Positions 25,381-25,584 of a DNA stretch of 64,000 nucleotides are shown piece after piece. The notes below the pieces were generated by a model. It made no database searches, had not been told where the DNA came from, and saw nothing but the letters and a program-made list of their open reading frames with translations. Both the position numbers and the translations under genes were made by a program. Source of the stretch: Eledone cirrhosa (taxonomy: Eukaryota); contig OZ024747.1 of assembly GCA_964016885.1 (NCBI GenBank), positions 60,450,001-60,514,000 of the forward strand, given 5' to 3'. How positions within the stretch are numbered: the first letter of the stretch is position 1; the number at the start of each line of letters is the position of its first letter.

Positions 25381-25581
25381 TAACGAAGGAAATGTGGTAA
25401 AGAACCAGATGGACCATAACACACCAAAGTACTCAATACTTAGGGTAGTAGAGTGAGTAATAGGAACAAGTATGACGCTGACGGCAGAGCTCAAGCCGTT
25501 TCGACGGCTAATTCTGGACAAAATGTCCAGAATTAGCCGTTGAAACAGCTTGAGCTCTGCCGTCAGGGTCATACTTGTTCC

Positions 25582-25584
<3 letters not shown>
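25381..25584 (-). mobile_element. (TA)n-embedded fold-back element H2, copy A
   Basis: 61-bp arms 25460-25520 and 25524-25584, 3-nt loop, tail 25381-25459. Confidence 0.88.

What the first reader, a model, noticed from the sequence alone, without database searches (positions are those of the whole stretch)
25381..25584. Family H2: covarying fold-back element with a fixed turn point and no canonical ribozyme core
Seen: three copies (25381-25584 minus, 47441-47641 plus, 61151-61348 plus) follow a (TA)n tract and have about 60-bp arms plus an 80-nt tail. All three turn at the same TCTGGA/TYCAGA point. Arm sequences differ between copies but stay paired within each copy (taggaacaag/cttgttccta, taggagaaag/ctttctccta, tgaaaaga/tcttttca). 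Each arm also has a local hairpin AGCCGT-CGAA-ACGGCT that becomes AGCTGT-CGAA-ACAGCC in copy B (compensatory change), next to an invariant GAGCTC palindrome. No CUGANGA is present. Inference: a structured mobile RNA or DNA related to H1, either using a non-canonical ribozyme or with the fold-back primed at a fixed processed end. I do not recognise it as a named family.
Basis: partly seen in the sequence, partly recalled or inferred. Interest (0 to 1): 0.75.

Follow-up and report, generated by a model that had tools for sequence, protein, structure and literature searches.

The report
Penelope retrotransposon end-stubs joined head-to-head
These 200-base hairpins are the cut-short ends of a very abundant Penelope-type jumping gene, and the longer copies carry the missing half of a known variant hammerhead ribozyme motif; each hairpin likely forms afresh when two short DNA copies of the element's RNA, one started from each side of the cut chromosome, are joined near a preferred but not fixed stopping point.

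Summary
The three hairpin-plus-tail copies are real, but they are not a new ribozyme element. The right arm plus tail is the last ~140 nt of a 3,531-bp Penelope-like element (PLE) in the same genome (77-91% identity). [quoted passage not shown] Longer copies supply the missing 5' half of a type I hammerhead with the known U3-A8 core (UUGANAA), which is why no CUGANGA was seen. GAGCTC is loop III. Compensatory changes lie in stem II; the proposed local hairpin has none. The turn is not fixed: 53 of 53 junctions differ, though 125 of 143 arms end within 14 nt. The outer ends are the fixed ones. In 14 of 53 joins the tail-less arm is at least 10 nt longer, which one folded-back cDNA cannot give. 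Two target-primed cDNAs joined by microhomology or snap-back is the best model (inferred). The stop zone may be the RNA's 5' end (untested). About 10^5 copies. Known anatomy, new family member.

The parts
25525..25584 (+). Copy A, tail-less inverted arm (element sense on +); outer end at the short RT start site ..TTCCTAT joined to (TA)n; inner end at element position -16
25463..25525 (-). Copy A, tail-bearing arm: 3' half of the hammerhead (stem II 3' strand, GAAA 25502-25499, stem III with GAGCTC loop 25492-25487, predicted cut after 25480, stem I 3' strand mutated to AGCGTC)
25381..25462 (-). Copy A, ~80-nt PLE tail between the two fixed outer ends; in the full element it continues into the ORF
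47441..47500 (-). Copy B, tail-less inverted arm (older B subfamily)
47502..47560 (+). Copy B, tail-bearing arm: hammerhead 3' half, decayed at CpG sites
47561..47641 (+). Copy B, tail
61151..61209 (-). Copy C, tail-less inverted arm, inner end at -15
61209..61266 (+). Copy C, tail-bearing arm starting at -17 (the modal stop); hammerhead 3' half with GAAA mutated to GAGA, GAGCTC 61237-61242, predicted cut after 61249
61267..61348 (+). Copy C, tail
25585..25650 (.). (TA)n target tract beside copy A; (TA)n also follows its tail
47412..47441 (.). (TA)n target tract before copy B
61110..61152 (.). (TA)n target tract before copy C

Best explanation
H2 copies are extremely 5'-truncated, head-to-head insertions of a Hydra-clade Penelope-like retrotransposon in (TA)n, each likely made anew when both ends of the cut target prime reverse transcription at two RNA start sites about 80 nt apart and the two short cDNAs are joined at their inner ends. 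Shown: identity with the element end, the RT-plus-endonuclease ORF, two fixed outer ends, variable inner junctions clustered at -22..-9 (0 = hammerhead C11.1), excess microhomology, and the complete U3-A8 hammerhead motif in long copies. Inferred: the endonuclease nicks both strands of (TA)n; each 3' end pairs with a UAU in uncleaved RNA; one cDNA starts after the tail and the other before it; both usually stop at the same template position (mode -17); one end snaps back or anneals through 1-4 nt, and host repair seals the join. Least certain (about 50%): the stop zone is the 5' end of the element's mRNA, at an initiator-like TTAGT. The short copies are dead-end by-products and lack half of the ribozyme core.
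For: Right arm plus tail matches the end of a tandem 3,531-bp unit at 91% (A, 145 nt), 89% (C) and 77% (B). ORF: 716 aa from the ATG, model pLDDT 93.6, best structural matches telomerase RT (E 1.8e-8; Z 18.2, rmsd 2.8, 272 aligned), Hydra motifs present. Long inverted insertions of 1.5-3.6 kb per arm end at the same two outer sites. Direct copies also end at the short site with no tail (L248, L254, L259), so it works as a start of its own. In 53 joined pairs: 53 distinct junctions; tail-less arm longer by 10 nt or more in 14, tailed arm in 3; no significant correlation of the two inner ends within the zone (rho 0.21, p 0.26, n 31); microhomology mean 1.38 nt in 37 simple joins against 0.66 +/- 0.15, 0 of 5,000 simulations as high. 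Snap-back-type centres face either way: 7 loci with the loop on the tail-less arm, 5 on the tailed arm (read by hand). Both arms stop at the same template position despite starts 80 nt apart: 125 of 143 arms end at -22..-9, 26 at -17. The B subfamily, where TTTAGT is unpaired in the predicted fold, stops there too (8 of 39 at -17). Genome-wide in the youngest subfamily: 9,604 exact matches reach -10 but only 2,160 carry the 5' core. In vitro precedent: a Poseidon PLE cleaves and extends both strands and starts RT at two sites flanking the tail on uncleaved RNA (PMC11167929).
Against: No copy had arms from two different common subfamilies (0 of 101), so two unrelated RNA templates are not shown; one RNA read twice, or a tandem transcript, must be assumed. 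The 14 versus 3 asymmetry comes from a sample chosen by the tail-less arm and is biased that way; tail-selected copies show both directions. Later deletion in a palindrome centre could mimic unequal arms. An extra cap-templated G was not found (G 13, C 11, A 2 before arms starting at -17). The TATA-like word 29 nt upstream is absent from subfamily B and weak in D. Pfam and PDB sequence searches gave no RT or GIY-YIG hit, and the endonuclease rests on motifs only. Rfam hammerhead models did not hit, and only 1 of 3 folds beat its shuffles (z -0.25, -2.84, -0.79).
Confidence: 0.7

Rival explanations
1. Single-cDNA fold-back: one tail-primed cDNA stops near the top of stem II, snaps back, copies itself, and is resolved at the TAT before the tail by the endonuclease or by microhomology with (TA)n. 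Unequal arms would be later deletions.
For: Arms always belong to one subfamily (0 of 101 mixed). 36 of 53 pairs are symmetric within 9 nt. Snap-back centres such as TCTG|AGTCCAGA exist. Self-priming was proposed for PLE palindromes (PMC3846280, passages).
Against: It needs the tailed arm to be longer by a loop. By my count, the tail-less arm is longer in 28 of 53 pairs and equal in 6. In L002/L031 it is about 1.5 kb against 134 nt, in a sample not chosen by that arm. Loops face both ways. Centres on perfect palindromic words (TCGA, AATT) have no loop.
Confidence: 0.2
2. H2 is a non-autonomous mobile unit (retrozyme- or MITE-like) that is transcribed and re-inserted as a whole hairpin, with its own non-canonical ribozyme.
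For: About 10^5 copies. Two loci hold neighbouring copies with identical junctions (L103 tandem, L269 mirror).
Against: 53 of 53 junctions from separate loci differ. The short copies lack the 5' core and the 5' strands of stems I and II. The proposed local hairpin has no two-sided change. The identical pairs are adjacent and fit local duplication or assembly duplication.
Confidence: 0.05
3. Same two-cDNA model, but the stop zone is an RT stall or trimming point set by the long stem II structure, or by a 3' splice site (TTTAG|), not the transcript start.
For: The zone lies on the 3' strand of the stem II extension in two subfamilies. TTTAG follows a pyrimidine run in subfamily C. D. virilis Penelope has an intron ending at its hammerhead (PMC4209133). 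No cap-G excess.
Against: Subfamily B stops at the same place where the motif is unpaired. A stall is expected at the base of a stem, not near its top. Junction inserts share no common upstream exon, and many arms keep the AG.
Confidence: 0.3

Closest known systems
Hydra clade of C-terminal EN+ Penelope-like elements (Craig et al. 2021, PMC8557442, section 11 and supplementary files S1-S2)
   Same: Single ORF with RWK-type motif (RWR here; R100 W98 K71 among 117 aligned homologues), DKT, CxCX5C linker, CxxC before the E, CxH after the N, no cysteine pair between VIY and YIG, insertion in (TA)n, type I hammerhead near the 3' end; an inverted 5'-truncated copy is listed for Penelope-13_HM.
   Different: All Hydra hammerheads listed in the part of file S2 that I read have C3-G8 cores with short stem II; this family has U3-A8, a stem II region of about 55 nt and a 5-bp stem III with a 9-nt palindromic loop. 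The unit is 3.5 kb (listed families mostly under 3 kb) and the tail about 80 nt, not 30-40.
EN+ PLE insertions with inverted pLTR and one-sided tail (PMC8557442 Fig. 2 legend; Adineta vaga Penelopes, PMC3846280)
   Same: Head-to-head inverted copy, tail on one end only, partial tandems, palindromes at the junction.
   Different: Here most insertions are reduced to the last 60 plus 140 nt, and the inner ends pile up in a 14-nt zone; I found no paper that quantifies this.
Anolis Poseidon (PAc) in vitro mechanism (Frangieh et al. 2024, PMC11167929)
   Same: Both strands cleaved and extended, AT-rich target, two RT start sites bounding the tail, uncleaved RNA as template.
   Different: A different clade. 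PAc starts without homology to the target, whereas both ends here share TAT with (TA)n. The parts I read do not treat joining of two cDNAs.
U3-A8 hammerhead variant in Schistosoma Cercyon PLEs, and PLE hammerheads with palindromic loop III (Cervera and De la Pena 2014, PMC4209133)
   Same: U3-A8 covariation in the core, long helix II, G10.1-C11.1, palindromic loop III, 5-bp helix I.
   Different: Helix III here has 5 bp, so the monomer is predicted to fold; cleavage was not tested.
L1 twin priming (named in bioRxiv 10.1101/2024.12.14.628481, passages; mechanism otherwise recalled)
   Same: Both target ends prime cDNA and the products are joined in inverted orientation.
   Different: L1 inversions cover non-overlapping parts of one RNA; here both arms cover the same stretch from fixed starts.

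Membership tests
EN+ Penelope-like element | Single ORF with telomerase-like RT | tested here: met
   784-aa open frame with YRDD; model matches TERT best. Pfam and PDB sequence searches gave no hit.
EN+ Penelope-like element | C-terminal GIY-YIG endonuclease | tested here: inconclusive
   VIY...YIG, R, H, E, N motifs conserved at 97-99% for Y, Y, G, R, H, E, N among 117 sequences; the domain was not folded and searched alone, and no Pfam hit.
EN+ Penelope-like element | Tandem or partial-tandem pLTR organisation with inverted 5'-truncated copy and one-sided tail | tested here: met
   L087 tandem array; L089 and L092 inverted copies ending at the short site, direct copies ending after the tail.
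Hydra clade PLE | RWK and DKT motifs in the N-terminal RT region | tested here: met
   RWR at residues 36-38 (homologue majority RWK) and DKT at 116-118.
Hydra clade PLE | CxCX5C linker; CxxC and CxH around E and N; no CCHH cysteines between GIY and YIG | tested here: met
   CNCPDRSIC at 571, CNLCSEE at 669, CKH at 697; one non-conserved C between VIY and YIG against the definition.
Hydra clade PLE | Insertion in (TA)n | tested here: met
Hydra clade PLE | Placement in an RT tree with named Hydra families | not tested
   No named Hydra proteins were in hand; membership rests on motifs.
Neptune clade PLE | CX2-5CxxC linker and CCHH motif in the endonuclease | tested here: not met
Type I hammerhead ribozyme (full element) | Core 3-9, GAAA, NUH triplet and three helices around the junction | tested here: met
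   UUGANAA intact in 22 of 27 aligned copies (4 have C3 with A8, 1 has U8), N7 takes all four bases; 91% of cells paired, two-sided changes at three stem II columns, largely one event each between subfamilies; MFE gives the three-way junction in 3 of 3.
Type I hammerhead ribozyme (full element) | Match to Rfam hammerhead models | tested here: inconclusive
   No hammerhead family listed at E up to 10; the long stem II and variant core may be the cause.
Type I hammerhead ribozyme (full element) | Self-cleavage after GUC | not testable with these tools
   No pile-up of ends at the predicted cut in the pattern sample: 1 of 59 and 1 of 53 at +22..+26.
Type I hammerhead ribozyme (short H2 copies) | Complete core in the copy itself | tested here: not met
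   The 5' core and the 5' strands of stems I and II are absent.
Non-LTR retrozyme | Tandem monomers each with a complete type I hammerhead, copied as a unit | tested here: not met
   Copies are dispersed, lack half of the core, and have unique junctions; definition from bioRxiv 10.64898/2026.07.22.740005, first part read.

The most novel reading that the evidence does not exclude
These stubs are integrated pairs of strong-stop cDNAs. PLE RT starts at two sites just downstream of the element's own transcription start, one on each broken target end, runs off the RNA's 5' end at the TTAGT inside hammerhead stem II, and the two products are joined by snap-back or microhomology. About 10^5 genomic junctions would then map the PLE transcript start and record how PLEs make their inverted ends and avoid host second-strand priming.
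Probability: 0.4. Interest if true: 0.6.

Novelty: new member of a known kind. Interest (0 to 1): 0.3.

Why it matters
As a claimed new ribozyme or new mobile element it does not stand. Its value is as a large natural record of PLE integration, whose inverted and tailed ends Craig et al. 2021 call unexplained. The family is young and has intact tandem copies, so the two-start, two-cDNA model and the transcript-start reading can be tested directly. It also extends the U3-A8 hammerhead core to the Hydra clade, and warns that CUGANGA-only searches miss a family of about 10^5 copies. Many earlier AI notes in this scan reached similar readings in other genomes, so the pattern is general for PLEs rather than special to this window.

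Tried and rejected
Rfam on the window and on three loci: only sub-threshold miRNA-type hits, no ribozyme family. Pfam on the ORF, its C-terminal piece and 10 of 120 listed homologues, and PDB by sequence: nothing relevant. HDV-like, twister and Helitron/HINE readings were considered from memory and dropped once the full hammerhead and ORF were found. Neptune clade: my first guess, rejected on motifs. Pile-up of ends at the hammerhead cut: a few older copies end at or near +24 (L163, L234, L110), but 1 of 59 and 1 of 53 in the pattern sample; not supported. Cap-templated G: 18 of 24 came from mismatch-tolerant walking that moved C-class junctions to -21; (10 G, 11 C, 4 A) merged recurrent junctions; the clean recount gave G 13, C 11, A 2; not supported. 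Two different RNA templates: 0 of 101. (362 matches) used a pattern with a minor variant and is not a survival count. One search (tail of the youngest subfamily as DNA query) returned nothing because common words are skipped. The youngest-subfamily sample stayed at 30 loci rather than the 70 planned. Near-place and sequence look-ups of earlier findings were empty.

Full report
Observation. The three copies are at the stated places. A script found arms of 61 bp in A (25460-25584) and 59 bp in C (61151-61269), and BLAST gave 85% arm complementarity in B; A and C are 85% identical, B about 75% to both. Arm mismatches are few: 3 in A, two of them at CpG, and 7 transitions in C. The centres differ: CATTTTG, CAT and G lie between TCTGGA and TYCAGA. 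Rfam has nothing above threshold.

What it is. A search of the window's own 3.0-Gb genome with the right arm and tail of C gave 1,523 first-look candidates, 40 scored. Among the 30 loci fetched, several run on upstream without folding back (L002, L009, L019, L020, L023). L002 carries a 1.5-kb inverted arm with the end of an ORF. That ORF piece led to many 784-codon open frames and to a tandem array with a 3,531-bp unit (L087). The last ~140 nt before the tail end of that unit match A at 91%, C at 89% and B at 77%. The protein (716 aa from the ATG) has 2,215 homologues at E 1e-10 or better among 7,998 scored, none of the 120 listed with an informative name, and no Pfam or PDB sequence hit. A model from 117 sequences (pLDDT 93.6) matches telomerase RT best. 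The motifs RWR/RWK, DKT, CxCX5C, CxxC, CxH and the lack of a cysteine pair inside the GIY-YIG core are those given for the Hydra clade of Penelope-like elements, which insert in (TA)n (PMC8557442, section 11). No tree was built, and the endonuclease fold was not tested alone.

The ribozyme. Long copies of every subfamily, including B, carry a full type I hammerhead motif: stem I, UUGANAA, a long stem II, GAAA, a 5-bp stem III whose loop holds GAGCTC, GUC, stem I. In 27 aligned copies U3-A8 is intact in 22, and position 7 takes all four bases. The U3-A8 core and palindromic loop III are published for PLE hammerheads (PMC4209133, parts 1-2 of 4 read). The named structure has 91% of cells paired and two-sided changes at three stem II columns (13, 13 and 8 sequences), mostly single events between subfamilies, so this is consistent rather than strong. 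All three subfamily sequences fold into the three-way junction, though only one beats its shuffles. Rfam hammerhead models do not hit. Cleavage is untested.

Abundance. 133 stretches of 10 kb, 131 evenly spaced and 2 beside the window, held 56 clusters, about 1.3 x 10^5 in the genome. For the youngest subfamily, exact patterns give 10,813 matches at +11..+35, 9,604 reaching -10, and 2,160 with the 5' core. Position 0 is C11.1.

Ends and junctions. The outer ends are fixed. The tail-less arm ends at ..CCTAT and the tailed arm at ..CGTTAT, both sharing TAT with (TA)n, in stubs and in multi-kilobase inverted copies alike. Direct copies can also end at the short site with no tail. For the inner ends I took the first 30 matches on contig C1 of each of two end patterns, dropped L270 as a mirror duplicate of L269, and corrected L265, L294 and L318 by hand. 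Of 59 tail-less arms, 42 end at -22..-9, 6 further upstream and 11 earlier. 53 had a tailed partner within the locus and 6 did not. All 53 junctions differ; 36 are symmetric within 9 nt; the tail-less arm is at least 10 nt longer in 14 and the tailed arm in 3. The sample is chosen by the tail-less arm, which favours that direction. The 37 simple joins show more microhomology than simulated joins (1.38 against 0.66 nt). Some joins hold templated snap-back pieces (L148, L152, L162, L187). Over all loci not chosen by this region, 125 of 143 arms intact to -7 end at -22..-9, with a mode at -17 (26 arms, hazard 0.41), the A of a conserved TTAGT. A TATA-like word starts 29 nt upstream in the youngest subfamily, AT-rich sequence stands there in C and E, and it is absent from B. 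No cap-G excess and no pile-up at the predicted cut were found. Arms never came from two common subfamilies (0 of 101).

Mechanism. One tail-primed cDNA folding back must leave the tailed arm longer. Many copies are the other way round, and snap-back loops face both ways (7 and 5 loci by hand count). Fold-back from the short-site cDNA alone cannot supply the tail. Both start sites must therefore be used in one insertion, unless later deletions explain the unequal arms. This fits the in vitro result that a Poseidon PLE cleaves and extends both strands and starts at two sites that bound the tail, on uncleaved RNA (PMC11167929, parts 1-2 of 4 read). Both arms stop at the same template position although they start 80 nt apart, so the stop belongs to the template. 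A transcript start is my preferred reading: D. virilis Penelope has an internal, initiator-bearing promoter in this region (PMC2377424, passages), and the initiator consensus TCAGT/TTAGT is recalled, not from a call. A stall or a splice site remains possible.

Comparison and novelty. Inverted 5'-truncated copies with a one-sided tail are standard PLE anatomy (PMC8557442, passages and section 11; PMC3846280, passages, which proposes self-priming). In the supplement part I read (part 2 of 59) the Hydra hammerheads all have C3-G8 cores, and Penelope-13_HM has an inverted 5' copy; the other 58 parts were only word-searched, so a closer named family could be there. Supplements of the bioRxiv papers were not seen. 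Searches for a printed two-cDNA or strong-stop account of PLE inversions found none in the held library; results were seen as listings, plus passages of one L1 preprint. Earlier AI notes in this scan reach the same reading in this and other genomes. My notes predate that look-up, but those findings are not independent support.

Verdict. A real and very abundant feature, explained as stubs of a Hydra-clade PLE with a known variant hammerhead. Identity as a PLE end is close to certain, twin priming about 0.7, and the transcript-start reading about 0.5 given twin priming. Interest 0.3.

Noticed in passing
window 61510-61720: The H1-type hairpin-plus-tail element: different sequence, same build, with a canonical CTGAGGA...GAAA core in its right arm; likely a second PLE family. 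A relative abuts an H2 arm in L022.
   Followed up: partly
window 23306-23363 (-) and 28271-28328 (+): Two near-identical tRNA-like stretches just under Rfam's threshold (28.1 bits) beside microsatellites; likely a tRNA-derived SINE.
   Followed up: no
window 16364-16423: A 30-bp-arm palindrome with no spacer, unrelated to H2.
   Followed up: no
window 25157-25366: A second inverted repeat directly beyond the tail of copy A, with (TA)n at both ends; family not identified.
   Followed up: no
L009 about 110-140 and 580-832; L143 upstream flank: Other hairpin or hammerhead-like pieces with canonical CTGATGA, CTGACGA and CTGAAGA cores; several more PLE families seem to share the (TA)n tracts.
   Followed up: no
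L103 267-671; L269/L270 (G000:C1:5866372-5866595): Neighbouring H2 copies with identical junctions, one pair in tandem and one mirror-image across a (TA)n tract; local duplication, re-replication or assembly duplication.
   Followed up: partly
L161, L150, L033 (two copies): 4 of 27 full hammerheads have C3 with A8, a core mismatch that may mark a lineage with a weakened ribozyme.
   Followed up: no
L293, L305, L310, L311 junctions: Runs of A or T added at the inner end after GGACT, suggesting slippage or untemplated addition where the cDNA stops.
   Followed up: no
L087 1456-1660: The reading frame is open for 68 codons before the first ATG and runs through hammerhead loop III and the tail.
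   Followed up: no
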